A DNA stretch of 64,000 bases, taken from NCBI GenBank assembly GCA_000004985.1, contig GG738845.1. One strand, 5' to 3'. This DNA comes from Naegleria gruberi (taxonomy: Eukaryota). The notes under the pieces were generated by a model. The model did no database searches and was not told the DNA's origin. It worked only from the letters and a program-made list of their open reading frames with translations. The first letter of the stretch is position 1. Every line of letters starts with the position of its first letter. Shown one piece after another: positions 3,500 to 58,377 of this stretch. The position numbers were made by a program, and so were the translations under genes.

Positions 3500-3720
3500 T
3501 TTTTTGTTTTGTTAATTGAGTGATTTTTTGAGGTGAGGTTGGAGATTAATTTTTGGTCCGACAGATTAGGGCGCACTAAATCAAGAACAGAACCTCAATA
3601 AGCAAGAGAAACAATTTTAGACATGACAAGGAGATTAAATTTATTTATTTTACAACAATTAGTGATTAAATTTACAATCTTTTGATGATTAATTTGCTTG
3701 GTGGTGATTGAGGATTCTTT

Positions 3721-4734: not shown

Positions 4735-4886
4735 TTTTTTCTTTCTTTTTGAAAACTTACAATATTATGACCACAATTTAAACACTAAAGTTGACCACAG
4801 ATGATTTAATAATTGAAGTTGAAAGATGGAGGAGATAGACACGAGTCCTCTCTTCAGAGATAAGGTGCGGATGTATAGTAAGAATA

Positions 4887-5886
4887 TTAAGAAATTACTT
4901 TGGAAATTGCTCTAAATACTGTTGATACCCACAACATGTAAATCATATGAACCAATACAACAATACCCAATAGAATAAATCCGTTTGTTTTCTTTACAAC
5001 TTGTTTTGGTCCTGATACATTTTGTAAACTTGTTTCAGCTGTTCTTGAATAAAAAGTCAAACCAAAATTAATACTTCCTGATAACCCAATTGTAAAATAT
5101 AACAAGTATGGAATAATTGTCGATAAAGATCCAGCTCCATATAAAACAAAAACGACAACTTGAATGAGGCAAATAGGCACAAGTTGATATCCTGTAATGC
5201 ATAAAATAGAAATTAAACTTAAATTACATCCAAGAATTAATCCAGCAATAAGGAAGAAAATAGATGCACCAATCCAATAAACAAATGATGCGAATAAACT
5301 TGTTCCAATCAATGTTCCTTCATTCTTTCCAATTTGATTATATTTAATAATTATTGTTAGAAGGTTTCAATAACATATTGTTAATAGATTTGATGATTAA
5401 TTATAATGTGTGAGTATTAATTGCAATAAAACAATCAAATTTTCATTATTATTGTTAGTATATTAATTTCCTTTAAAATAAACCTACAACATGAACATCA
5501 GAAAACTTCATTTGAAAATCTAATATTATAGCTAAAGTAAATGTAGCAACAAGTGGAACAAATAAATCCGGTTCCTCAATGTGATTGATCATGGGGTTAA
5601 GAGGTTTAACAGAGTTGATTATTCTCTGAAAAACTTGTTTTTCTTCTAAATTAATAAAGTATGGTTTTAAAAATCCGAAGGAAAACCATGATGGTACGAC
5701 TTTGGAAGTTGTGCTTTGTAGCATTGATTTAGCAAATTGAAATTGAAAAGAATTCGTAAGCTCATCCTCATCTTGATCTGGTATTGTTGGTGTGGATGTT
5801 TTCGTTGTCTTGGGTTTACTTTCTTCCAGTGATGAGAGGTTTTCATCAAAGTTTGATTCTATCCAATCAGAGTTGTTATTATTCAT
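4887..5886 (-). CDS. Yip1-domain family membrane protein. Two exons, with an intron of about 163 nt at about 5325-5487.
   Basis: The ATG lies at about 5886 (MNNNNSDWIES...). The frame is maintained from the end of exon 1 (...SDVHV, followed by GTAGGT) to an acceptor before NEGTLIGTSLFASFVYWIGASIFF.... The C-terminal half consists of multiple transmembrane helices typical of Yip1/YIF1 proteins. Confidence 0.5.
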
Positions 5887-6129
5887 GATGATATTTTTTA
5901 ATAAAATATTATTAACAAAATATTCGGAAAGAAATAAAATCTTCATAATAAATCATCTTTAAAAGTTGAATCATTTAATAAACTAAATAATTAGTGATAA
6001 TAAGTCATCTTTATAATGAAAACATTTGGGAGGGGAAAGTGAAAAACCAACAGATAGAACTTCAACAAAAAATGGCACCTCATAAACGCATAGGACAAAT
6101 TTAATTTCTCTTTTGAATTTTTAAAAAAA

Positions 6130-7589: not shown

Positions 7590-10497
7590 ATGACCAACAA
7601 GAGAAAAGCAAATGCTCCACCAAAAGATTTCAAGAAGGAAGTATGTAAATTTGTGATGATTTAATAATAACAATCGGAATAGAAAAAAAAAGTGGGAAGA
7701 AAATTAAAACCAACAAATTATACAAATATCGAATTCAAGACAAAGGGTATTTATATGGCCCACCAAAATTTGAGAACTGTAGATACATTGGAAAGTAATT
7801 GGGTTACAAGCAGAAATATTGGATTACAGGATATATTTCCAAAGTTAAAACACTATAATGTAAAAACTGTGGTGTCTGCTATGAAAAGTCTTTTGGAGTT
7901 AGTTACTCTACATCCTATTGTCTTGAAAGTTTATTTGGGAAAAATATTAAATGAAATATCACATTTACTCTTAATGGGAGAAGATGAAATTCATGCAGCA
8001 TTATATAATTTCTTGAGTTATAGTTTACCTAAAATATCAAGCGTAAGTTTGAGATAATTTGAACTTTTCCAATATTGTTTAGGCTTCTATCACTCCATTT
8101 ATATCATTATTAATGGCTTATCTTACATCGGGAATGACTCATCTTATTGGAGCTGTTAGAAGATATTCATTAAAGATTTTATCAAAATTTTTGGAACATT
8201 TTCCAATACCAATTTCCCAATATGCAGTTAGAGTAATGCCTAATATTTGTTACATTTTCATGTTGAGCAGAACAGGAGTCTTATATAAGGGAGCAAGATA
8301 TAGAAGCTTACAACAATTATGTGTTACTGTATTGGATAATTATCTTTCTGTTTTATTTGAAAATAACAAACTTGGAATACCATCCAGTAAAAAGGTTAAT
8401 CATACACATACACACAACCACATGAAAATGAACCTGACAAATATTAATTCATCATCATCTCAATCAACAGGTAATATTTACTTTTCTAACAATAGTTCTG
8501 AAAAGGCTCAATATTCATTTGATAATGTGGACCAAAAGAAACTTCACTTATTGAATCAATTGTTGACTAGAAAGATGGCTGTTCAAGATAATCTAGAAGA
8601 AAAAACAGTTAAGTTGGATGCTGAACAACTCCTAGAAGTTGGAGATGAAAAGAAAGTAGAACAAGAAGATAATGATAACAAACCATCTGAATTACCATCT
8701 CTTAGAAAATTATTACAAGAAGAAATGCAAATCAAAGTTTATAATTTAGAGGATGAAGAATCTATTGCTGAATTCTTTAAATTAATTTTCCATATACTTG
8801 TTGAGGTTTGGATTGAAATTTTTGAAGAACAAAGAGCTTCTGCAGCTAGTCACCATATTCAAACCGAATATGTGCTAACTGTTATCAAATCTGTCTTAGA
8901 TATTGCTTATCAACTTTTATATGCCTTTGAACACACTCAACAAGGTTCTCAAACTAAGAATATTAACAGCAAAATTGTAAATAAGGCATTGAAGAAATCA
9001 TTGAACCACTTTGTTACAAAGTTACCACTTCAACTTTCTTCTAAAATAAGACAAACAACAAATAGTATTGATAGAACCAATGCAAGCTTGCTTTCAATGC
9101 TATCATTTGCATTTGGAAAGTTTAGTACAGAAAAGGAAAGTAGCGAGATTACTTACAAAGAGTGGGAACTTGTTTATTTAAAGCAATTTTCATACTTTTT
9201 ATCAAGTGCAGAATCACTCAACTTGCATGATGAGGATTTTGCAAAACTTCTTGGATCATTCTATAGAATGTACAAATATTTACCACCTTCAATAGGAGCT
9301 CAATTATGGAAACATTTAACTAGTTTGTTTGTTAAACAAGGAGCTTATTCATCAAAGCAACAGTTAATTTTGGAATTCTTTGCTAATGTTGGACTTAAAG
9401 ATGAGTCAATTACACCTCCTCCAGATGTTATTGAACAGTGGGTAGCAGTATTAGTACCAATGCTATGCCAATTAGATGAAAAACATTATGAATTAAGCAA
9501 ACATATTCTTAATGTTTTACTTGGACTTGCTAAAAATCCAAAGTTCCAATCTTTCATATTGAAACAAGTCAATCAATCAATTGTTCCATTCTATTATGAT
9601 GAAGAAAAGAAACAATTTGGACCATTTGTAAATCTACCAAAATATTTACAATCCCTATCACTCCAGTTAATTTATTATTTTGATGTTTTACCTCCAGAGT
9701 TAATGAAACAAATATCAAGAGCATGCTGTAATACAGAAAAGAGACTAAATTTCGATTTGCTTACTCAAGTCATTGAGGTTGTGAGACATCATACAAACAA
9801 TGCAAGCAAGCAAAATAAGCTTAAGCCATCTGTACATATTAGTTTCCTGTGTACTATCCTGTGTTTTGTTTGCTCTCCAACTGGTGAAACTAACAACCAA
9901 ATTGGTCTTGTTGGTGTTGGTGATGTTATACAAGAAATCATTGTTTCACTTCAAGATTATTCCACTACTATCTTTTCAAAGTTGGTTCCTTTCTTAAGAA
10001 ATAATTTGGAAAAACAAGTTAAAACTGAAAAGCCAAATATTACACTATTGGGAGCTTTATTACAAATATCCGCCAAGACTATTAGTTGGACAAACATGGA
10101 GCAAATTGAAACAACAAATCTCTCACTAATTGAAGAACTTATACCGAAAGCTCTGGTTTGTTTCCTCAAACATACAATTCTCCAACAACGAAGATCAAAA
10201 TCATCTTCCATTATTACTAGAGAGATTTTAATCTCTTATTATCCAACCTTGAGAAATATTATCAGTTTACTAGATAATCAAATTTCAACACTTGAGCCTC
10301 ACTTTGTTTTGGATATTATTTTAGTTTGTATGAAAGTTGCTCTTTCTCATTATCATACCAATAAGGGAGAATCAACAACATTAATACAACAAATTGAACA
10401 GCAATGCAAGACACTATTTGAGAAGAATGAGTTTGTTGAGAATGAGTACTCATCAAAGAAGAATCAAATTTTAGGTCTTTTAAAGATGAATCAATAA
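7590..10497 (+). CDS. TEX10: TEX10/Ipi1 homologue, a component of the Rix1/PELP1 pre-60S processing complex. Three exons: about 7590-7640, 7683-8042 and 8083-10497.
   Basis: The N-terminus MTNKRKANAPPKDFKKE..KKKVGRKLKPTNYTNIEFKTKGIYMAHQNL resembles the Ipi1_N domain (KK-rich, then TNFTDTSFKTKSIVLPEQ). It is followed by a long helical-repeat body. The introns are GTATGT..AG and GTAAGT..AG, and the frame is maintained across both. Confidence 0.6.
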
Positions 10498-21473: not shown

Positions 21474-21481
21474 TGGCGCCA
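21474..21481. promoter_or_regulatory. TGGCGCCA palindrome (E2F-like TTTGGCGC core on the minus strand), 44 bp upstream of the channel ATG and directly after the exportin-5 stop.
   Basis: The sequence is aaaaTGGCGCCAaataaaa. It is a GC-rich 8-mer sitting in an AT-rich spacer. Confidence 0.3.
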
Positions 21482-21524
21482 AATAAAACTACAATCATTT
21501 TTTTTCAAAGCTCAAAAAAAAACA

Positions 21525-23612
21525 ATGCCTAAGAAAAAGCAATCCAAAGAGGATTTTCCAACCTCTCTCGGAGAACTTCTAAAGAGGAAGGAAAATTTTG
21601 TTACCAAACAAATTAACGATGAAAAAGCTGAGAAGGAAAAAGCAAAACAAGAAGTTAAAACAGAATCAAAAAAGTTACCATTCTACAAACGACCTTTTTA
21701 TTTAAAGTATATTAAACCATCAATTCTATTTCTCGTTGATAGAAAGAAATGGTTCAACAAATGTTGGATGGTTTTTATATTTTTGATTGAATTGTATAAT
21801 TCCTTTATAATTCCATATAGAGCTTCTTTCGATTTTGAAAATTCAATGATGTGGTATATTGCTGATGCTCCTTTTGACTTAATTTTGTGGCTTGATTTGA
21901 TTCTTAACTTTTTCTATCCTTATAGAGATGCTATGAACTTGTGGGTTGATGATTTTAAGAAAACTGCCAAAAGGTATGCAGTCAAAGAAAAACTTGGATT
22001 ATGGACAGATTTGATTTCATTATTTCTTCTTGATTGGATTCCAGTCGCGGTTGCTACTTCAAGTAACGATCCAAGCCAGTCCTATCGTGCAGTTTGGAGG
22101 TTGAATAGAGCTCTATTATTTTTCAGAGCCCTTAAAAGATTCCCTAAAATTGAAGCTCTTATTCCTGCCAAATTCGCATCGATTGCCAAGATGTTCAAAT
22201 TACTTAACTTTGTCATTATCGTCGCAATGTCTGTTCACATTTCATCATGTGTTTGGTTTTCAATTGTTATGGCTGAATATCCTGATTCACAAGTATTTAC
22301 ACTTAGTGCCTCAATTTTTGAGCCATCAACCACTACTTTGTACAAGTATATGTATGGTTTTTACTGGAGTTTAGTTTCCATGGCAGGATATGGAGGTACC
22401 ATGCCTGTCTCTGATTTACAGGTTGCTTTTGTAGCTATTATTTACTTAGTAGGAATCGCTGTCTTCGTTACCGTCATTGGTATCGTCTCTTCATTAGCTC
22501 AGGATTTAAATGTAACAGAAAGTGCTTTTATAGAAAAAGTGGATGCAGTAACAGACTATATTAATTCAAGAGGATTGTCAGCTTCCTTAAAAAAGCAAAT
22601 TTTACAATATTACCAATATCTATGGAAGAGTAGAAAAGGATTGGATGAGTCAAAGATTATTAGAGAACTTCCTGATTTTTTGAAAATAGATGTTGCTATG
22701 CAGCTTAATGCTGATATTGTAAAAAAGGTTGAATTGTTCAAATCTTGCTCTCAGAACTTTATTCATGAAGTTGTTATTAACTTGAAACCTAGAATTGTCA
22801 TGCCTGGATCTTATGTGATCAGAGAAGGAGAACCAGGAAATGAAATGTTTTTTATTGGAAAAGGTGTAGTGGAAGTTAGATCTAAAACAGGAGTTTTGTG
22901 GTCAACCCTTGGAAGTGGTTCTTTTGTTGGCGAGACTGCTCTAATTGATTCTGTTAAAAGAACAGCCAATGTTATTTCAATCGAATATGTTGACTTGTTC
23001 GTGTTAGAAAAGGAAGCTTTTGATGAAATTATGTCAACTTATCCTGAAGATGCCAAAAATGTTATTGCAACCAGCGAGGCAAGAAAACAAATGAACAAAC
23101 AAAAGGCAGCACAATCAGCCCTCAATCTCAAAGGAGACACAATTCCATATGAAGAAATTACCAAACTATTGGAAAAGATTTCAATTGGCCTTGTTTATCA
23201 AAATGTAGAAGGAAACGACTTGTTCAAAGCACTTTCAGTAGTTATTCACGATCCTGCAGAGGTAATTATTCATCACATGGATGAATATTTACGAAATAAG
23301 AATAAGGAAATGCAAAGTATTATTCTTCCAAACGCAAATTGTGCTGATATGGATCAATTTATGGAAAAGTTGAAAAAAGGTGAACATAAGGCTGGTGAAA
23401 CTGAAGTTAAGGTTATTGCTTTGCAAATGAGAAGAACAATTATTGTTGCGAATCCTATAGATGGAGGTAAATTTATTATTCACGGACATGATGGATCAAC
23501 ATCTGAAGTTTTCGAATTGCATGATTTGAGTGATTCTGATAGATTCCACAAACCTGTTATTATTATCACTAGTGGAAAACCAGGTGTTTACTTGGCAACC
23601 AGAAAGAAATAG
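21525..23612 (+). CDS. Cyclic-nucleotide-binding six-TM cation channel (CNG/K-channel-like) with a C-terminal OTU-like domain. Single exon, 695 aa.
   Basis: The protein has S1-S6 hydrophobic segments and a pore motif SMAGYGGTMP. A cNMP-binding domain reads FIGKGVVEVRSKTGVLWSTLGSGSFVGETALID...RTANVIS. The C-terminal 150 aa carry OTU-like motifs VEGNDLFKALS and GETEVKVIALQMRRTIIV. Confidence 0.75.
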   Translation: MPKKKQSKEDFPTSLGELLKRKENFVTKQINDEKAEKEKAKQEVKTESKKLPFYKRPFYLKYIKPSILFLVDRKKWFNKCWMVFIFLIELYNSFIIPYRASFDFENSMMWYIADAPFDLILWLDLILNFFYPYRDAMNLWVDDFKKTAKRYAVKEKLGLWTDLISLFLLDWIPVAVATSSNDPSQSYRAVWRLNRALLFFRALKRFPKIEALIPAKFASIAKMFKLLNFVIIVAMSVHISSCVWFSIVMAEYPDSQVFTLSASIFEPSTTTLYKYMYGFYWSLVSMAGYGGTMPVSDLQVAFVAIIYLVGIAVFVTVIGIVSSLAQDLNVTESAFIEKVDAVTDYINSRGLSASLKKQILQYYQYLWKSRKGLDESKIIRELPDFLKIDVAMQLNADIVKKVELFKSCSQNFIHEVVINLKPRIVMPGSYVIREGEPGNEMFFIGKGVVEVRSKTGVLWSTLGSGSFVGETALIDSVKRTANVISIEYVDLFVLEKEAFDEIMSTYPEDAKNVIATSEARKQMNKQKAAQSALNLKGDTIPYEEITKLLEKISIGLVYQNVEGNDLFKALSVVIHDPAEVIIHHMDEYLRNKNKEMQSIILPNANCADMDQFMEKLKKGEHKAGETEVKVIALQMRRTIIVANPIDGGKFIIHGHDGSTSEVFELHDLSDSDRFHKPVIIITSGKPGVYLATRKK

Positions 23613-32636: not shown

Positions 32637-33014
32637 TTGTTGATGTCAGACACTGTAAAGAAGCTTCATTCGGTTTCTGGACGAAGTTTTGCACAACCAA
32701 CAATTAGTAGTTTGAATCTATCAAAAAGTAACCAAGCAGGAATACTCTCCCCTATTCGGAAAAGACAAACTCCTCAAGCAGATTTTGCAAACAAACAATT
32801 TAAAAAGGAGAATGTAAGGAAACCATCAGCACCTCCAAATCAACAAAAACCTTCCGATAACAACATTGTGACATCAAATAAGCAGATAGACAAGAAAGAG
32901 ATTCTAAGAAGGCAAATATACGCAACCAATCACATGATGAAAATAATAGAAAATCAAAAGTGGGAATTATTAAAAAAGGGGCGTCATAACTCAAATGCTT
33001 CATATACCTTATAA
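32637..33014 (+). CDS. Hypothetical small basic protein of 125 aa; the coding status is uncertain.
   Basis: The only support is an open frame sitting in the divergent spacer between two genes. The predicted protein is Lys/Gln/Ser-rich and shows no recognisable domain. Confidence 0.2.
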   Translation: MLMSDTVKKLHSVSGRSFAQPTISSLNLSKSNQAGILSPIRKRQTPQADFANKQFKKENVRKPSAPPNQQKPSDNNIVTSNKQIDKKEILRRQIYATNHMMKIIENQKWELLKKGRHNSNASYTL

Positions 33015-33144: not shown

Positions 33145-33154
33145 TTTAAAGTAC
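33145..33154. promoter_or_regulatory. TTTGGCGCCA (E2F-like site), about 55 bp upstream of the PACRG ATG.
   Basis: The sequence is gtacTTTGGCGCCAtaaaat. Confidence 0.3.
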
Positions 33155-33207
33155 TTTGGCGCCATAAAATTTACAGCATTAAATCAAAACAAAAAAAAAT
33201 ACAAAAC

Positions 33208-34298
33208 ATGGACACCAATAATTTAGGCCAAGGTCCAACTGCAGATTTTAAAGGAGAATATGTTCATCCTGTTGTCTCTGCAAATAAGGGAACAGCATCA
33301 TCACTGTTGCTTGAAGAATACACCAAGACCCACATTTGTAAAAATCCTTTGAAAGGAGGAGGAAAACAATCCAGGCCCGATGCAACTTTTCTTCCAAAAT
33401 CAAGTGAATCTCCTTTTGGAAGTTTCCCAAATGAAATGAAGCCAAGAACAATGAAGACTCAAAGAATTCAATCATCGACAGAATCTTCCCTTGATTCAGG
33501 ATTGGTTGGTTCTAAAATGTTGTCAAGTAAAACTACCTTGGAAAAAACTGAAAAGGGAACTTTCATGTGGAGCTCTAAGAAAATTGGATCTGGAGGAGCC
33601 TCAAGCTCTTTAAGAGAAGGTAAAAAGCCAACACCTCCACCAAAACCTGTTGCTGGTGCAATGGAAAGAAGATCCATCCCAGAAACACAATTCAGAAAGT
33701 TTTACGAAAGAGGAGACTTACCAATCTCTATTAAACATGAGGGAACAAATGAAATCCATTGGAAAGTTAAAGCTGAAAAACTCGATTATCATCACTACCT
33801 TCCAATATTTTTTGATGGGTTAAGAGAAAAAGAAGAGCCATATAGATTTTTAGCAGTGCAAGGAACATTTGATTTGTTAAAATATGGTAAAGATAAGATT
33901 GTGAACTGCATACCACAACTAATTATTCCAATCAAGAGTAAGTAATATTACTGTAATATTCCATATTCTTTTACCCTAAAATAAGCTGCTTTAAATACAA
34001 GGGATCCTGAAATTATATGTACAGTACTGAAAGTAATCCAACAATTAGTTTTATCAAATGAGAAAGTTGGTGAAGCCCTAGTTCCTTACTATAGACAAAT
34101 TCTTCCAATTTTCAATCTCTTCAAGACCAATAATATCAATCTTGGAGATGCCATTGAATATTCTCAAAGAAAGAGACTAAATATTGGTGATTTAATTGAA
34201 GAAACTCTTCAACTGTTAGAGCAAGAAGGAGGTGAAGATGCATTTATTAATATTAAATACATGATTCCAACCTATGAATCGAGCGTGCTCAATTAAAC
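33208..34298 (+). CDS. PACRG: Parkin co-regulated gene protein (PACRG), an axonemal inner-junction protein. Two exons: about 33208-33937 and 33986-34298.
   Basis: [54 protein letters not shown]...IPQLIIPIK|[86 protein letters not shown] is near-colinear with human PACRG. The intron has a GTAAGT donor and an AG acceptor, and the stop codon is at about 34296-34298. Confidence 0.85.
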
Positions 34299-50905: not shown

Positions 50906-51592
50906 TTATAAAATTTCAATTATTTCAGAAACCTCATTAGGATCTAATACTTCAGTCACATCATCATCATCACTTGAAACATCATCTATTTCAACAGGTC
51001 TTAATGGAGTGGAATCAATATAAATTATATTATTTTTTCTGTGGGTAATAGGAGTGGTAAGATTAATGAAAGATTTCTCAGGTGTGTGATGTATTTCACT
51101 TTCGTCTACAAGANNNNNNNNNNNNNNNNNNNNNNNNNNNNNNNNNNNNNNNNNNNNNNNNNNNNNNNNNTCTTCATCACTATTCTCATTTCTATAAAAT
51201 CCATTCACTAGTTCGTTGTAGTCAATTTCAAAATCTTTCTTCTTGACAGTAACTACTTTGAAGGTCTTACTCTCTTTTTTATCAAAAACTTTGAGTGAAG
51301 TGAATCTTGACCTACACACAGGACAAAGATTGGAACGTTCCTTCCACAAACAAATACACTTGTTACAAAATTGGTGTTTACAATGATTTGGTACGGCCTT
51401 TGGATAGGAAACAGTAGATAAACATATTGTACAAACTTGTTCGCTATCATCACTTGAATTTTCAGTGTTGTGAGTTTCGGAAGAGGATGGTTTTTGTTTT
51501 TTTGTTTCCGTATCCAAAGTGTTATCTGACTTTCTTTTCAATGCTATGGTTTTAACAAGTCTTTTCCTTTTAATTGGTGATGGTGAGGTCAT
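50906..51592 (-). CDS. RING-finger E3 ligase-like protein with an acidic C-terminus carrying SIM-like hydrophobic-acidic clusters. A 57-nt assembly gap lies within the CDS.
   Basis: A C3HC4 RING reads CTICLSTVSYPKAVPNHCKHQFCNKCICLWKERSNLCPVC. The tail contains IIYIDSTP, VEIDDVSSDDDD and EIIEIL. N residues at 51114-51170 interrupt the ORF, but the frame appears to be preserved. Confidence 0.5.
   Translation of the reverse strand: MTSPSPIKRKRLVKTIALKRKSDNTLDTETKKQKPSSSETHNTENSSDDSEQVCTICLSTVSYPKAVPNHCKHQFCNKCICLWKERSNLCPVCRSRFTSLKVFDKKESKTFKVVTVKKKDFEIDYNELVNGFYRNENSDEXXXXXXXXXXXXXXXXXXXXLVDESEIHHTPEKSFINLTTPITHRKNNIIYIDSTPLRPVEIDDVSSDDDDVTEVLDPNEVSEIIEIL
51114..51170. other. Assembly gap, a run of N inside the RING-finger CDS.
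   Basis: Fifty-seven consecutive n characters are present at this position. Confidence 0.99.
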
Positions 51593-51701
51593 TCCTAATT
51601 TTTCCTTCTATTTAATGAACGGATGAGTACGAAGTTTAAATGGTGAATGCAATCATTCGTTTAATACCTAATTTTTTTGCATTTTTAACGGCAAAGAAAG
51701 T

Positions 51702-51709
51702 TGGCGCCA
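51702..51709. promoter_or_regulatory. TGGCGCCA palindrome, about 110 bp upstream of the RING-finger gene ATG on the minus strand.
   Basis: The sequence is agtTGGCGCCAaaattaaa. On the minus strand it reads TTTTGGCGCCAACT. Confidence 0.3.
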
Positions 51710-51767
51710 AAATTAAAAATAGTTTTTACAAAAAGTACCATGTATTTACATTTATTTACAAAGTTTT

Positions 51768-52760
51768 CTAAGGTAAGATCTTCTTGATCATCTCTTTTTG
51801 TTGATTATCTAAAAATCGAGGGAAGACTATGGCTGGTTTAATGATTAGGTCTCCTTTTTGATCTGGATTCTTGGAAAGTGGCATACCTTCTCCAGAAACA
51901 GTTTTAGAATATCCTGGGTTTACAATGTCATTAATAGGTATTCTTAGTGTCCTATCATCTAATGTTTTAACTTCTATTACAGTGCCTGAAAGTGCTTCTT
52001 TCAGGGATACATTAGGAGTGTAAATAAGATTATTTCCTTCCCTTTGAAAAGTATTATGAGGTTGTTCATCAATTTCGAATACTACATCTGCAGCAATAAT
52101 ACCTGGAGCTTGATCTCCCTCGTTTTCAAATCTTATTTTTGTTCCCTTCTTAAATCCTTTTTTGATTGGAAAAGTTAAAATCTTTGATTCTTTTCTTGTT
52201 GTTTGCCCATCTGGGTTTAGAACTTGTTTTGTAATCTTTATCCTCTTTGTTTTTCCTTTGTATAAATCCTCTAGGGAACAAACAACTTTTTGAACAACAT
52301 CTGGAGCCTTTCTTGGTCCTCTTTGTTGAGTACTCTTAAAGAATGATCCTGGTCCAAATCCAAAGGATGAAAATGAGTCATCACCATCATCAAATCCTCC
52401 ACTAAACATTGAATCGAAAGGGCTTCTTGCCCCAAAGAATTGTTTGAAAATATCTTCAGGGTTTGTAGCATGGAAAGTATAGGAACCTCCACCTCCACCA
52501 AATCCGGCACCACTTCCACTTGTTGGAATTCCTCCCTTTAGGCCTTCTTCCCCATATTGATCATAGATTGCTCTCTTATTACTGTCACTTAATATTTCAT
52601 AAGCTTCAGCAATTTCCTTAAATTTTTCTTCGGCCATTTGCTTGTTGTCAGGATTTCTATCGGGATGCCATTTTAATGCAAGTTTACGATAGGCAGATTT
52701 TAATTCCTTCTCATCGGCACTTCTAGAAACCCCAAGTATTGAGTAATAATCTTTTCCCAT
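51768..52760 (-). CDS. DnaJ/Hsp40 homologue, subfamily B (Sis1/DNAJB1-like), 330 aa.
   Basis: The J-domain reads [40 protein letters not shown] and contains the HPD motif. It is followed by a Gly/Phe-rich linker and then C-terminal substrate-binding domains. There is no Cys-rich zinc finger, which indicates type II. Confidence 0.85.
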
Positions 52761-52814: not shown

Positions 52815-52823
52815 GAGCGCCAA
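52815..52823. promoter_or_regulatory. GAGCGCCAA half-site variant in the divergent DnaJ/NIPBL promoter region.
   Basis: The sequence is aaaaGAGCGCCAAtatc. On the minus strand it reads TTGGCGCTC. Confidence 0.2.
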
Positions 52824-53037
52824 TATCTTGATGTTGTAAGTAGACGTGATGATTAAGAACTGTTTGAGCACTTTTTTTGTCTTTGTCATTCGGAATGATA
52901 GACGTTTTTAAAAAAAAATTTATTTTCAATTTTATTCCGAACCAAAAATTATTCCGATGCTATCGTGGAAACAAAATCCTTTACCCGCCAAATCTTGTTC
53001 TTGTTGGTGAAAGAAGTGCAAAATAAAAATTAAAAAA

Positions 53038-56000
53038 ATGTCTTCAAATAATAATCGGATACCTTTATCAAACAATGGATCAAGATTTATTGATGCCTTT
53101 CTTCCTCCTTTTTGTGCCCAATTTTCTATTATCAACGAAATGCCTCCACTGACTGTCAAAGAACAACCAATATTCAAAAATATCGATCATCCATCCAAAG
53201 ACTTGTACACTTATAATTTATTACAATGTCCTCATCACAAAGAGGAAGTAATTAAATGGCTTGATACCAATGATGAAAATTTAGTTGAAGGACTTTATAA
53301 TGTTCTCACTTCAAAACCAAGAATGGATGATGAAATGTAAGTTTTCAGCAAAAGGAGTTATAAATTCTTTGCCAAGTATTTTAAACTCTAATGGTGGTAG
53401 TTTAGTACAACAAGATTTGAATAATAATAGTAAGAATTCAGTACTTTTGAGTTCACTCTTAAAATTCCAGGAAGATAAAGAAAATCGACCAATCAATCCT
53501 TCACCTGTATCATATGATTTATATAAGAAATCTTTACAAAAAGAAACACCAAAAGTTACTTCTAATACTACACCAATCAAGATTCGTAAAGCTAGAAGAA
53601 ATAAGAGTAAGTTTTCACTAAACATTCATTTAAAATCTTCTATTTTAGAATTAATTGATGAAGTTGAGACACAAGAAAAACCATCTTCAACAGTATCTAA
53701 TGGTCAACCTTCAAAACTAGTAATTAATGCAAAACTTGCTCCAAAAACAACAAGTGTCGAAAAACTTATAGGAGCACTTGATGAACTTTTTGCATGGAGT
53801 GACTTTAGACAAAGCGAAGATGAATTGGTGGAAGAAAAATTTCTTAAGGATGTAGAAGTTGAAATAGGCTTGGCTCATAAAAATAATTATTTGAAAGAAG
53901 TACCTACGGAAAAATTAATTAAATTGTTAAGTGTGCTAGAGAGTCAAGTTAATGTAGGATTAGAATTAGTTAAAGTAGTATCAGAAACTTCAAGAGAAGA
54001 ATTAGTAGAATCTTTAAAACAAGATAAGGATAGTATTAGTAAGGCTTCAAGATGTGCTATACTATCATTTACTGTTATGTCTGGTAGAGGCGTTTCTAAG
54101 GAAACTCTAAATGAAGAATGTTTTGAAACCATTCTTGATTTTACCAAAACAGTTTTGAGAAAATATATTTATCCTATTGTAGAATCAGAAGAAGCTCCAA
54201 AAAAGAAAACAAGTAGAAAATACAGTTGCAATTCAGAGATGATTCAATTGTGTAAAATTTTCAAAAAATTAGACAAAATTCTTAGGAAACAGTCTTTGAA
54301 AGACGAATTTATTTTAACAATATCAGATATCGTTGTTTCTACTTTCTTTGTAAATGGTATTGATGATATACAACTTGCATCATTGGGTGTTATTACAAAA
54401 GTAAGTTTATTATTATTGATTCACAGAGGTATTAATAATCACAAAAAATGTGTTAATAGATTTTCTCTTCTTATCCAGATCACAGAGAACAAATTCTTGG
54501 TGAGATAACAGTTTCTCTTTTAAGGCTTCCAGCCAACAAGAAGACTGACAGAAGGTTTAGAATACCAGAAACTTCAATTCATATCCAAATGTTCACATCT
54601 CTTATGCTTCAATTAATTCATTCATGCACTGATATCAAACGAAATGAAACTTCTGTAGCAAGAAAACTCATCTTTGATAATGTTGAAAATAATTCAGATG
54701 ATGATCAGGATGATGATATTATGAAGGACTCAACTCCTGAATCAGAAGACATTATTATTACTACATATGAACAAGCTGTTCGTTGTGCCACAACATTTTC
54801 AGAGTATTTCTTGGAAAGATGTACAAAATCAGAATCTGTGGATGGAGATAATAGACTAATTATTGAACATTTTGTGGAGGATTTACTGGTGGTTCTTCCA
54901 TTGCCATCATGGCCAGCAGCAGATCTTTTACTTCAAGCGTTAGCTAACATTCTTTGCAATAAGTATCTCTCTCAAAAAGATATTGCTGATAAGTATAGAC
55001 AATTGGCTTTAAAAATTTTGGGAAAACTTGCTGCTAGAATTAAAGAACTTGAATTTAAAAATTTACAGTTCATGAAGGACTACATGTTAACAATGGAATG
55101 CGTACAGGATAACAATGGTGAAACTAGTAATACTATGGAGTTACATACTACCAAATTGCAAGATGAGTTTAAAACTTTATTTGAGTTGGACGAAATTGAC
55201 AAGATGAAACTTTCGCTATTCACATATCTCAATATGAAGCAAAAAGATTATCCAATGATTTCTTATTCTAAACAGTTTACAATCGCTCAGTGGTTTTATG
55301 ATGAAAGAGAAATAGAAAAGAAAGCACCATTCTACAAAACTTTATTATTGAGAGATGATACTGATACTGTAAACACGTATGTAGTATTTTAAATTATCAT
55401 TTATTAATTCCAATCCAAAAGACCCCTACAAGATGTCGAGTCACAAAATTTATATATTAATATTCTTTGTAACAGAAATTCAAGTATCATTAACAAGTTT
55501 GACTTTGTCTTTGGCCAAATTATTTCAGAACTGAAGGATGACAAACCAAAAGTCCGCGCAGATGCTATCAAAGCTTTACAAACAGTTATTAATATGGATT
55601 CATCTGTATTAATGAAAAATTACGTACAACTTGGAATTCGTGAAAGAACTGTAGATGCATTCCCTTCAGTGAGAGAGTCTGTTATTGATTTAATAGGAAA
55701 TGCTATGATAACTCTGAAAAGATATGAAGATTTTTATATCAGAATAATATTAGATAGAGTCAAAGATACATCAAAGAGTGTTAGAAAGAAAAGTATTACA
55801 ATTCTGGGAGAACTTTGTTCCTTAATTACTGAAGATAATATGATTACAGAAATTTGTAAAACTTTAGCAAGTAGATTAAGCCATCAAAACAAGGAAGAAG
55901 ATAATATCAAGGAACTAGTTTTAAAAACCTTCACAAAGCTATGGTTTGATAAAAATACCACAGAAAAATTCAAGCTAAGTGGGCTTCAAATTGTGGATGT

Positions 56001-58377
56001 TATAGGAAAGCAAGCAATAGATTTTAAACAGTACAAAGATCATTGGCTCTATCAAATTATTAATGTAAGTTATCATCTTTAATACTAACTATATTTAAAC
56101 TTTATTAACAGTTGGCCAGTATGTCAAAAGATCACGAAAAAATTCAAACTTCTCTTAAAATGATAATTGAAACTCTTATACAACATGTAATCAAATTGGA
56201 TAGCGAAGAAAAAAAAGCTACATCGCCTAGCGAGTTATTCAATAGGTTTAATATTGTAACTTGTATGAGTGCTTTACATTTGATTTGTCTAGCTGATCAT
56301 TCTTTATTTCTTTCTCACTTTAGAAATATTTCTGGTAAGTCGCAGAAAATTTAACCATCTAATTATTCAACCCATTAGTATATATTAAATCTGAGAATCA
56401 ACTCCCTCTTGTTTATCATGCTGTATGCATAGTTGATAAGTTATCTCCTTATATTAACAAACCAGAGCAAAAATTTTGCGATGTTCTCCAAAAAGAATTA
56501 GTGAAATTAATATTTTCATGTCCAGGTGTTAAACAAGAAATAATAGAGGCGTGTGTCAGCTGTTTGTGTAATTTTTGCTCAAGAATCAAAAATACTCAAT
56601 ATTTATACACTGTTCTTAATAATATATTCTCTTTCATAACAGTGTCAGATACTAATCTGCAAAGCGAAGCAAGAACTTGCAGATTGCTTTATGCAGCAGC
56701 ACTATTTTGCAGATATCACGACTTTGATAGTACTTCAGATATGATTGAAAATATTACCAATCAAAACTTGAAACCTGGAAAAATTGTACAAACTATTTAC
56801 AGCATCACTATTGGCTGGATTTCCAAATCGTCTGAATTGATCAAGCAAAAAGCAGCCAGATCTTTAGGATTCTTATTGATAAGACAACCTAAACTTTTCT
56901 TGGTAAAGCAAACTCAAACTGCTATTTCACAAAGCTTGTCCAGTGAAAATAGGGATTTTGTCTATGAAGTTGTCTTGATGTTTAAAGACTTTTTACTGGC
57001 TGAAGAATCAAAGCTAAGCTCCGCTACCCACCAAGAGAATATGGATGCCGGTGTAACATCAACTTTAATGTTAAGCTACATTGATGCATTGATTGCTCTT
57101 TTAGACGATACTACTGATTATATTAGGCATGCCACTCTAGAAGTTTTAGAATTAACTGTACAACAAGGATTAACTATTCCTTCAAAGATAATGAAATATA
57201 CATTGGCAATGGAATCAGATCCTAATAGTGATGTTAGAGAAAAAGCCCATACTATTAATTTATACCTTAAAGACAGATTTTTAAAAATGTTTACCAGTGA
57301 AGCCAGACATAGTTTTTCAAAGGCATTTATGCATTTGAATAATATTAATGAGAAATCTGTTATAGTGAAAGGAATAATTGATGGTAAAAGTGCCTTCCAT
57401 GGTATTTATTCATTGTGCNNNNNNNNNNNNNNNNNNNNNNNNNNNNNNNNNNNNNNNNNNNNNNNNNNNNNNNNNNNNNNNNNNNNNNNNNNNNNNNNNN
57501 NNNNNNNNNNNNNNNNNNNNNNNNNNNNNNNNNNNNNNNNNNNNNNNNNNNNNNNNNNNNNNNNNNNNNNNNNNNNNNNNNNNNNNNNNNNNNNNNNNNN
57601 NNNNNNNNNNNNNNNNNNNNNNNNNNNNNNNNNNNNNNNNNNNNNNNNNNNNNNNNNNNNNNNNNNNNNNNNNNNNNTACCTTTATGATAGAAGCTCTAA
57701 TTCATTTACCATATAAGAGCTTGTATGAAGTTGCCGAAATTGTAACTACTCTTGGTGAAAAATTGGATATGTTAGGAGATAGTGTGAAAGAAGAGCTTAA
57801 AAATCAAATCAAAAATGAGGAAAAGGAGTTGAAATATGTCAGAAAATACATTACACTATCATGCTGTTTATGTTTCTTGATTCAATTTAAAAACACACTC
57901 CAAGTTAGATATAATTTGACAAATTCAAAGATGGAAGAGTATTCTGCAGATTCAAAGTCCTTCATCAAAAAGATTATTACATCCTCCTCTATCAGGGATG
58001 TTTCTCTTGTGGAATTTAATTTAATAATTCCTAAATTAGTTAAAACTATCTCAAGTCAAGACTATGAAGATGAAACAATAGCTGAATTGTATCAATGGTC
58101 AAAAAAAATTATCAAGAGCCACATGCACGATGGTTTTAATGTTACAGTGGGAAAAGCAAAAAGAGGAAAAAGAAAAACTTCTACAACCAAAAAAACCACC
58201 AAAAAGAAACCAGCACCAAAAAAGAGGAAGAAGGCTGAGGAAGAGGAAGAATATTCTGGAGAAGATACTGAAGAAGACAATCCACCAAATGAGGAAGAAG
58301 AGAAAACACCCCACGAAAGTGCCTCTGAAGAGGAAGTTGAACCAATACAGACCAGGAAAAGAACAAAGAGAAAATAA
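53038..58377 (+). CDS. NIPBL: Cohesin loader SCC2/NIPBL (Nipped-B). The gene has several exons, and internal junctions fall at about 54400/54460, 55376/55422, 56064/56112 and 56334/56379. A 259-nt assembly gap lies inside the CDS, and the 5'-most exon join is unresolved.
   Basis: IFSSYPDHREQILGEITVSLLRLPANKK resembles human VFSRYEKHRQLILEEIFTSLARLPTSKRS. IHIQMFTSLMLQLIH resembles MYIQMVTALVLQLIQ. KQFTIAQWFYDEREIEKKA resembles KFYIAQWFRDTTLETEKAMK. SVRKKSITILGELC resembles SVREAAVELLGRFV. IKELVLKTFTKLWFD resembles IKKLVNETFQKLWFT. CVSCLCNF resembles CVSCLGAV. All resolved introns are 44-59 nt GT..AG and keep the frame. Confidence 0.8.
57419..57677. other. Assembly gap, a run of N inside the SCC2/NIPBL CDS.
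   Basis: Two hundred and fifty-nine consecutive n characters are present at this position. Confidence 0.99.

What the first reader, a model, noticed from the sequence alone, without database searches (positions are those of the whole stretch)
33145..33154. A recurrent GC-rich palindrome TGGCGCCA, containing the E2F-like core TTTGGCGC, sits in AT-rich upstream spacers
In intergenic DNA that is otherwise very AT-rich, the 8-mer TGGCGCCA occurs three times: at 21474 (aaaatggcgccaaat), 33147 (tttggcgccataaa) and 51702 (gttggcgccaaaat). A half-variant GAGCGCCAA occurs at 52815. Looser variants are tggcacctcat near 6077 and gggcgcactaaa near 3573. Every occurrence lies 40-110 bp upstream of a start codon. 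In its flanking context the motif reads TTTGGCGC(C), which is the classical E2F/DP consensus TTTSGCGC. One occurrence lies in the divergent promoter shared with SCC2/NIPBL, a cohesin loader and therefore a plausible cell-cycle target. Another lies upstream of the ciliary gene PACRG. The palindrome could instead be the site of a different dimeric factor.
Basis: partly seen in the sequence, partly recalled or inferred. Interest (0 to 1): 0.5.

Follow-up and report, generated by a model that had tools for sequence, protein, structure and literature searches.

The report
Conserved E2F-type promoter sites in Naegleria
The GC-rich palindrome is a real, evolutionarily conserved promoter element in the amoeboflagellate Naegleria gruberi that matches the optimal binding site of E2F cell-cycle transcription factors. 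Its best-conserved targets are flagellar genes rather than classical replication genes.

Summary
All three lie in spacers 43-109 nt upstream of an ATG, none in about 53 kb of coding DNA. All three read TTTGGCGCCA on one strand. Against all 8-mers in non-coding DNA the excess survives Bonferroni correction (P 0.006).

The PACRG site is conserved at the same place in N. lovaniensis, Willaertia magna and three heterolobosean-like metagenome contigs. Substitutions are mostly G/C swaps within the core, as the E2F consensus TTTSSCGC allows. A second ciliary gene, CFAP298, carries TTTGGCGCC/TTTGGCGCG upstream in four lineages. A PWM built only from the foreign sites ranks the three window sites first.

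N. gruberi encodes one E2F, one DP, one two-domain DEL/E2F7-8 protein and RB. The DEL promoter carries a cluster of such sites.

The E2F reading is therefore supported. The cell-cycle reading is only partly supported: ORC6 has no site, and SCC2 has only weak variants, including an unnoticed TTTGGCGGG. PACRG is flagellate-specific.

This is a new member of a known kind. It gives a testable lead: an E2F-family factor may control flagellar genes in Naegleria, whose cilia-gene regulators are unknown.

The parts
33155..33164 (+). E2F-type site TTTGGCGCCA (8-mer palindrome 33157-33164), 43 nt upstream of the PACRG ATG
   Evidence: Top PWM score, 18.4 of 18.5 bits. Conserved at the same position in six related genomes or contigs.
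33166..33176 (+). AAAATTTACAG box just downstream of the PACRG site; a possible initiator or transcription start region
   Evidence: Conserved as AAAATTTACG, AAAAAATTTACA, AAAAAAAATTACAG and TTTTACAG in PACRG promoters of N. lovaniensis, Willaertia, L002 and L005. Its function is inferred only.
21474..21483 (-). E2F-type site TTTGGCGCCA (minus strand; palindrome 21474-21481). It lies 2 nt after the exportin-5 stop codon and 43 nt upstream of the CNG-channel ATG.
51700..51711 (.). E2F-type site GTTGGCGCCAAA (TTTGGCGCCA on the minus strand, the strand of the gene), 109 nt upstream of the RING-finger gene ATG (51592, minus)
52815..52824 (-). Weak E2F-like variant ATTGGCGCTC, 54 nt upstream of the class-B DnaJ ATG (52760, minus), in the DnaJ/SCC2 divergent promoter
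   Evidence: PWM score 12.3 bits, not above the coding-sequence background.
52983..52992 (-).
   Evidence: PWM score 12.2 bits.
33208..33945 (+). PACRG, first exon (NAEGRDRAFT_82851)
   Evidence: Pfam ParcG 6.4e-34. 92% identical to the annotated N. gruberi protein.
21525..23612 (+). Cyclic-nucleotide-gated channel gene (the annotated model EFC50264, 587 aa, is the ≥90%-identity cluster representative)
50906..51592 (-). RING-finger protein gene (contains an N run at 51114-51170)
51768..52760 (-). Class-B DnaJ gene (EFC50619). Its best full-length solved match is the radial-spoke protein DNAJB13/RSP16; orthology is unresolved.
53038..58377 (+). SCC2/NIPBL cohesin-loader gene (several exons)
   Evidence: Nipped-B_C and cohesin HEAT hits.

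Best explanation
The palindrome is the core of a promoter-proximal binding site for the E2F family of winged-helix factors, with full form TTTGGCGCC(A)AA.

Inferred mechanism: the single N. gruberi E2F-DP heterodimer, or the two-domain DEL/E2F7-8 protein, binds the GGCGCC core through the RRxYD helices. The site lies about 30-110 bp upstream of the start codon and a few bases upstream of a probable initiator. From there the factor switches the downstream gene on or off, possibly together with RB.

In this lineage the site is wired to genes of the flagellar apparatus: PACRG here, and CFAP298 in relatives. It is also wired to the E2F-family gene DEL and perhaps weakly to SCC2. I therefore think it couples these genes to the RB/E2F switch between the dividing amoeba and the non-dividing flagellate.

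Shown: the sequence match, location in spacers, absence from coding DNA, cross-species conservation, and presence of the factors in the genome.

Inferred: which factor binds, the sign of regulation, and the link to differentiation.
For: 1. Three exact sites, all intergenic, significant after correction over all 8-mers.

2. All three read TTTGGCGCCA, which matches the JASPAR/HT-SELEX E2F1 consensus TTTGGCGCCAAA. TGGCGCCA is the named E2F motif of Cryptosporidium promoters.

3. Orthologous PACRG promoters keep a site 40-85 bp upstream of the ATG:
- N. lovaniensis: GTTGGCGCTCA
- Willaertia: TTTGGCGCCTA
- L002: TTTTGGCGGCAT (reverse strand)
- L005: ATTCGCGCCGA
- L008: TTTCGCGCCAA
Most changes are G/C swaps within the core or losses in the flanking T/A runs; one is a C-to-T change in the core (N. 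lovaniensis).

4. CFAP298 promoters carry TTTGGCGCCAA (L006), GGCGCCAAAAA (L010, the only such site in 20.5 kb), TTTTGGCGCGC (Willaertia) and TTTGGCGCCAAAA (L092-L094).

5. Over 128 kb of foreign loci, 9 of 38 TTSSCGS sites fall in the 2.3% of sequence that lies within 300 bp upstream of these two genes (P 1.9e-7).

6. A PWM built only from foreign sites ranks the three window sites first, at 18.4 bits; the next distinct locus in the window scores 12.5 bits.

7. N. gruberi encodes E2F (EFC36120, RRIYD), DP (EFC41842, RRRVYD), DEL with two E2F_TDP domains (EFC40606), and RB.

8. In an N. gruberi-like contig, all three TTSSCGS sites of 8.1 kb lie within 165 bp upstream of the DEL start, including TTTGGCGCC 37 nt before the ATG. 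E2F sites on an E2F-family gene's own promoter are what an E2F network would predict.

9. Sites occur in both orientations and in divergent promoters with no 3' end nearby (L008, L010).
Against: - No binding or expression experiment exists, so the factor is inferred from sequence alone.
- Only two ciliary genes could be followed across species.
- Acrasis kona PACRG has no clear site, and L006 PACRG has only an imperfect one.
- ORC6 in the window lacks a site.
- The functions of the CNG channel and the RING protein in Naegleria are unknown.
- One non-ciliary gene (NDH-2-like, L008) also has a site 27 bp upstream.
- A genome-wide count in N. gruberi could not be made.
- Several related loci come from unclassified metagenome contigs. 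Their heterolobosean affinity is inferred from PACRG similarity.
Confidence: 0.7

Rival explanations
1. This is a classical G1/S E2F-RB element marking replication and chromosome-cycle genes. The flagellar genes are incidental.
For: SCC2/NIPBL has TTTGGCGGG 45 nt upstream of its ATG, plus a second weak variant. The DEL/E2F7-8 promoter has a site cluster. E2F, DP and RB are present.
Against: - None of the three strong sites in the window sits at a known cell-cycle gene.
- ORC6 has no site in 350 bp.
- The SCC2 variants score no better than chance hits in coding DNA.
- PACRG is expressed only during flagellate differentiation.
- Amoebae have no basal bodies, so cell-cycle control of PACRG and CFAP298 has no obvious logic there.
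Confidence: 0.12
2. The site belongs to a different, unidentified dimeric factor of Heterolobosea that happens to prefer a GGCGCC palindrome with A/T flanks.
For: The core is palindromic and works in either orientation. No direct evidence ties E2F proteins to it. The transcription factors for cilia genes in Naegleria are unknown.
Against: Orthologous sites drift to CGCGCC, GGCGCG and GGCGGC while keeping the T/A flanks. This is the degeneracy of TTTSSCGC, not of a strict TGGCGCCA reader. E2F-type sites also cluster on the promoter of an E2F-family gene.
Confidence: 0.13
3. The element acts at the 3' end of the upstream gene (termination or polyadenylation), or as a spacer or insulator between tightly packed genes, rather than as a promoter element.
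For: Site 1 starts 2 nt after the exportin-5 stop codon. Site 3 lies 58 nt beyond the DnaJ stop codon. The L006 site lies 106 bp beyond the PACRG stop.
Against: In L008 and L010 the site lies in divergent promoters with no 3' end nearby. The position tracks the downstream ATG in orthologues even though the upstream neighbour differs: N. lovaniensis has an extra gene there.
Confidence: 0.03
4. It is a chance recurrence of a rare GC-rich word.
For: There are only three copies.
Against: Bonferroni-corrected P 0.006 within non-coding DNA. Zero of 100 shuffles reach 3 copies. Independent conservation in other genomes gives P 1.9e-7.
Confidence: 0.02

Closest known systems
E2F/DP binding site (TTTSSCGC; JASPAR/HT-SELEX E2F1 consensus TTTGGCGCCAAA; overlapping inverted site TTTCGCGCCAAA of the mammalian DHFR promoter, the last from my own knowledge)
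   Same: The sequence is identical or nearly so: TTTGGCGCCA(A) here, TTTCGCGCCAA in L008, TTTGGCGCCAAAA in L093. The site is promoter-proximal, independent of orientation, and close to the probable start site. Cognate E2F, DP and DEL proteins with the RRxYD motif are encoded in the genome.
   Different: Binding has not been shown. The conserved targets seen here are flagellar genes, not replication genes.
Cryptosporidium parvum upstream 'E2F' motif 5'-TGGCGCCA-3' (Oberstaller et al. 2013, PMC3734150)
   Same: The same 8-mer, over-represented in short AT-rich upstream regions of a compact protist genome that retains E2F/DP.
   Different: In C. parvum it lies upstream of a very large and functionally mixed set of gene clusters, including ribosomal proteins. 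Here it is sparser: 3 strong sites among about 45 genes. It was traced to specific conserved targets. The lineage is unrelated (Discoba versus Alveolata).
Animal multiciliated-cell module E2F4/5-DP1 with Multicilin/GEMC1
   Same: An E2F-family site is used on genes of the centriole/cilium programme in a non-dividing, differentiating cell (for the animal system).
   Different: The animal co-activators (geminin family) and the downstream RFX and FOXJ1 factors are absent or unknown in Naegleria. The animal targets are mainly centriole-biogenesis and regulator genes. Homology of the wiring is not shown; convergence is equally possible.
RFX X-box (GTNRCC-N0-3-RGYAAC) of ciliary genes in animals and choanoflagellates
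   Same: An imperfect palindrome lying close upstream of ciliary genes.
   Different: The half-site differs (TTGGCG versus GTTGCC). RFX is reported absent from Naegleria.

Membership tests
E2F/DP-type binding site | Matches the consensus TTTSSCGC (optimal palindrome TTTGGCGCCAAA) | tested here: met
   All three window sites contain TTTGGCGC, and they are the only TTTSSCGC matches in 64 kb. The consensus is cited.
E2F/DP-type binding site | The same genome encodes E2F and DP proteins with the DNA-contacting RRxYD motif | tested here: met
   NgruE2F has RRIYD, NgruDP has RRRVYD, and NgruDEL has KRRIYD plus a second domain. The exact sequences are N. gruberi proteins EFC36120, EFC41842 and EFC40606. 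Pfam finds E2F_TDP, E2F_CC-MB and DP domains.
E2F/DP-type binding site | Located in promoters, absent from coding DNA, and functional in either orientation | tested here: met
   3 of 3 sites lie in spacers 43-109 nt from an ATG, and 0 lie in about 53 kb of coding DNA. Both orientations occur.
E2F/DP-type binding site | Evolutionary drift limited to changes the consensus tolerates (S for S in the core; T/A runs in the flanks) | tested here: met
   The PACRG and CFAP298 series show the cores GGCGCC, CGCGCC, GGCGCG, GGCGGC and GGCGCT. The last is a C-to-T change that still fits TTSSCGC.
E2F/DP-type binding site | Physical occupancy by E2F/DP, and an effect on transcription | not testable with these tools
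   This needs EMSA, PBM or DAP-seq, CUT&RUN, or reporter assays.
E2F/DP-type binding site | Marks G1/S and replication genes | tested here: inconclusive
   ORC6 has no site. SCC2 has only about 12-bit variants. The DEL promoter has a cluster. No genome-wide test was possible.
E2F/DP-type binding site | Sites on promoters of E2F-family genes themselves (autoregulation) | tested here: met
   In L011, TTCCCGCCA, TTGCCGC and TTTGGCGCC all lie within 165 bp upstream of the DEL ATG. They are the only TTSSCGS sites in 8.1 kb. The contig is N. gruberi-like: its protein falls in the same 90% cluster.
Animal E2F4/5-Multicilin ciliogenesis module | E2F sites on genes of the centriole/cilium programme | tested here: met
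   PACRG in 7 of 9 lineages examined (the extra one is L016) and CFAP298 in 4 of 4. Only two genes were examined.
Animal E2F4/5-Multicilin ciliogenesis module | Geminin-family co-activator (Multicilin/GEMC1) present | not tested
   No search was made. A review lists RFX, FOXJ1 and XAP5 as absent from Naegleria.
RFX X-box | Half-sites GTNRCC / RGYAAC | tested here: not met
   The sites read TTGGCG/CGCCAA. RFX is reported absent from Naegleria.

The most novel reading that the evidence does not exclude
In Naegleria and its relatives, an E2F-family factor (E2F-DP or the atypical DEL) is a direct regulator of the flagellar and basal-body gene programme that is switched on when amoebae stop dividing and become flagellates. 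That would fill the gap left by the absence of RFX, FOXJ1 and XAP5. It would also suggest that the E2F-cilia link seen in animal multiciliated cells is either ancient or has arisen twice.
Probability: 0.35. Interest if true: 0.75.

Novelty: new member of a known kind. Interest (0 to 1): 0.55.

Why it matters
E2F sites are textbook elements, and the same 8-mer is already known as the E2F motif of Cryptosporidium promoters. I found no description of promoter motifs for Naegleria in the searchable literature.

A 2025 review states that the factors driving cilia genes in Naegleria, Chlamydomonas and Tetrahymena are still unknown. Here an optimal E2F site is conserved at a fixed position upstream of two flagellar genes across Heterolobosea. 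N. gruberi has just one E2F, one DP and one DEL.

That yields a short, concrete candidate list and a motif that can be counted genome-wide against existing differentiation and mitosis RNA-seq time courses. It also gives a first anatomy of a Naegleria promoter: an E2F-type site, then a TTTACAG/CTACAA box, then an A-rich leader before the ATG.

Tried and rejected
1. A chimeric query (E2F+DP+DEL+RB) meant to fetch several N. gruberi loci at once failed. The search appears to keep only proteins at least 55% as long as the query and returned plant and animal E2F/DP proteins. One of the three searches was lost.

2. Looking up the N. gruberi E2F gene locus gave no record. The E2F and DP promoters therefore could not be read.

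3. A scan of JGI metagenome contigs with a PACRG alignment returned mostly about 1.1 kb transcript-like contigs and GC-rich genomic contigs of unknown origin. There the motif is too frequent to interpret. One contig, L016, has TTTGGCGCG about 100 bp upstream of PACRG.

4. Expression tables for N. gruberi were not held. The expression class of the CNG channel, RING and DnaJ genes could not be checked.

5. I tested whether the DnaJ is the radial-spoke protein RSP16/DNAJB13.
- The best full-length solved match is DNAJB13 (6e-86), and the TLDDRxLxIPIxDI stretch is shared.
- It keeps HPD.
- Its J domain and C-terminal domain score at least as well per residue against DNAJB1 fragments.
- Verdict: unresolved, so not used as evidence.

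7. Acrasis kona PACRG shows no convincing site.

8. No tRNA or Rfam RNA explains the sites.

Full report
**Source and gene map.** Five ORF products of the window are identical to annotated proteins of Naegleria gruberi NEG-M, which lie on a 1.56 Mb scaffold. The window is 31% G+C and very compact, with about 45 genes, few introns and spacers of 20-300 bp. Pfam identifies the genes next to the motif:
- a cyclic-nucleotide-gated channel (21525-23612, +)
- PACRG exon 1 (33208-33945, +)
- a RING-finger protein (50906-51592, -)
- a class-B DnaJ (51768-52760, -)
- SCC2/NIPBL (53038-58377, +)
- ORC6 (23651-24694, -)

**The observation.** TGGCGCCA occurs three times, at 21474, 33157 and 51702. Shuffles expect 0.08 and never give more than one. 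GGCGCC occurs nowhere else in the window.

All three copies are in spacers. Those spacers make up about 16% of the window and are more AT-rich than coding DNA. Within non-coding DNA the expectation is 0.010, giving P 1.8e-7, or 0.006 after correcting for all 8-mers. It is the strongest 8-mer that is neither low-complexity nor an overlapping word of the same three sites.

Each site reads TTTGGCGCCA on one strand. These are the only TTTSSCGC matches in 64 kb. The 8-mer ends 43 nt before the ATG of the CNG channel and 43 nt before that of PACRG. It lies 109 nt before that of the RING gene.

It also holds an unnoticed TTTGGCGGG 45 nt before the SCC2 ATG. No tRNA or Rfam family overlaps any site.

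**Conservation at PACRG.** PACRG homologues were found in other heteroloboseans and their loci were fetched. Local gene order (Ras/PFU gene, small ORF, PACRG) is kept in N. lovaniensis and Willaertia magna. The rest of the spacer does not align, yet an E2F-type site sits 40-85 bp before the PACRG ATG in each of the following:

| Genome or contig | Site |
|---|---|
| N. lovaniensis | GTTGGCGCTCA |
| Naegleria-like ENA contig (L002) | ATGCCGCCAAAA, i.e. TTTTGGCGGCAT |
| W. magna | TTTGGCGCCTA |
| JGI contig L005 | ATTCGCGCCGA |
| JGI contig L008 | TTTCGCGCCAA |

In L001, L002 and L005 it is the only site, or nearly the only site, of its kind in 5-21 kb. Acrasis kona shows none, and L006 shows only an imperfect one.

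The core changes are GGCGCC to CGCGCC or GGCGGC, plus one C-to-T change in the core (N. lovaniensis); other lineages lose bases in the flanking T/A runs. All but that one are G/C swaps allowed by TTTSSCGC. A box AAAATTTACAG follows the site in most lineages.

**A second ciliary gene.** In L006 a perfect TTTGGCGCCAA lies between PACRG and the next gene, CFAP298. I treated this as a prediction, searched for CFAP298 homologues and read the three other lineages available:
- JGI contig L010 has GGCGCCAAAAA 68 bp before the true ATG. It is the only TTSSCGS or SGCGCS site in 20.5 kb.
- W. magna has TTTTGGCGCGC about 255 bp before the called ATG.
- L092-L094 have TTTGGCGCCAAAA ending 45 nt before the ATG.

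Over all nine foreign loci available at that point (128 kb), 9 of 38 TTSSCGS sites fall in the 300 bp upstream of these two genes. That region is 2.3% of the sequence (binomial P 1.9e-7). The loci were chosen by gene, not by motif. Of the intergenic sites in the five annotated loci, five of seven belong to these genes. One of the other two lies before an NDH-2-like gene.

**Independent scoring of the window.** A PWM built only from ten foreign sites gives 18.4 of a possible 18.5 bits to the three window sites. The next distinct locus scores 12.5 bits. The SCC2/DnaJ variants (12.2-12.3 bits) are no better than hits inside coding DNA.

**The factor.**
- TTTGGCGCCAAA is the JASPAR/HT-SELEX consensus of human E2F1.
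- TGGCGCCA is the motif called E2F in Cryptosporidium promoters.
- The data of Medina et al. 2016 list one N. gruberi E2F, one DP, one DEL (E2F7/8-like) and one RB.
- The first three sequences are exact N. gruberi proteins (EFC36120, EFC41842, EFC40606) and carry E2F_TDP domains with RRxYD motifs.
- In an N. gruberi-like contig, the three TTSSCGS sites of 8.1 kb all lie within 165 bp before the DEL start. One is TTTGGCGCC, 37 nt before the annotated ATG.

E2F sites on E2F7/8 and DEL promoters are a known feature of animals and plants (my own knowledge). This ties the motif to the E2F network.

**What it regulates.** PACRG1 is reported as differentiation-specific in Naegleria: it is induced when amoebae become flagellates and is not induced in mitosis. 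CFAP298 is a ciliary protein family. ORC6 has a 19 bp spacer and no site within 350 bp.

The window therefore gives little support to a replication regulon. It gives fair support to use of the site on flagellar genes. A review notes that Naegleria lacks RFX, FOXJ1 and XAP5, and that its cilia-gene regulators are unknown. My searches for E2F together with ciliary-gene promoters returned only animal work.

The DnaJ next to SCC2 resembles the radial-spoke protein DNAJB13/RSP16 over its full length. It is equally close to DNAJB1 fragments and keeps HPD, so I do not count it.

**Rivals.**
- A 3'-end or insulator role is unlikely, because sites occur in divergent promoters (L008, L010) and follow the downstream ATG.
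- A different palindrome-binding factor cannot be excluded without binding data. It fits the drift pattern and the DEL cluster less well.
- Chance is excluded.

**Verdict.** It is an E2F-type promoter site: a new member of a known kind. The interesting part is the conserved wiring to flagellar genes, which is a testable lead rather than a demonstrated regulon.

Noticed in passing
window 52933-52940 and 52950-52957 (also 7674, 44637, 45745, 50811; related cattcggaatga near 52888): TATTCCGA occurs 6 times against 0.76 expected, and no shuffle reaches 6. Two copies lie 17 bp apart in the DnaJ/SCC2 divergent promoter. It is a candidate second promoter motif and does not fit a canonical heat-shock element.
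   Followed up: partly
window 4768-4774 and 4792-4798 (minus strand), also 958-964: GTGGTCA is repeated 24 bp apart just upstream of the BTB-domain gene (ATG 4734, minus). Overall there are 9 hits against 4.1 expected, a weak excess.
   Followed up: partly
window 33166-33176; 21487-21495; L001 ~9972-9981; L003 ~9973-9984; L005 ~5055-5062; L093 ~93-101: A TTTACAG / AACTACAA box follows the E2F-type site by 1-30 nt in many of these promoters. It may mark the transcription start. It is not general to all promoters of the window.
   Followed up: partly
window, start codons throughout (e.g. 21525, 24694, 53038, 59808): Start codons are typically preceded by an A run (AAAAAAATG). This helped to choose the real ATG in prokaryote-style gene calls of related contigs.
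   Followed up: no
window 51114-51170 and 57419-57677: Runs of N (masked or unsequenced) lie inside the RING-finger ORF and inside SCC2. Translations there are incomplete.
   Followed up: no
L011 3610-3733: The promoter of the DEL/E2F7-8-like gene in an N. gruberi-like ENA contig has TTCCCGCCA, TTGCCGC and TTTGGCGCC within 125 bp. They are the only such sites in 8.1 kb. This suggests E2F-family autoregulation in Naegleria.
   Followed up: yes
window 32643-33014; L001 6897-7310; L003 9499-9906; L002 2-373: A small ORF of 123-137 aa with no Pfam match sits between the Ras/PFU gene and PACRG in at least three of the Naegleria/Willaertia loci (in L002 the Ras/PFU side is cut off by the contig end). 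It is a conserved unknown gene whose 3' end abuts the PACRG promoter.
   Followed up: no
window 24695-24713: Only 19 bp separate the stop of the Glu/Gln-tRNA synthetase gene from the ORC6 start codon. The ORC6 promoter must therefore lie inside the upstream coding sequence.
   Followed up: partly
L008 8664-8674: GCGCCAAAAAA lies 27 bp upstream of an NDH-2-like (alternative NADH dehydrogenase) gene. This is an E2F-like site at a non-ciliary gene in a heterolobosean-like contig.
   Followed up: partly
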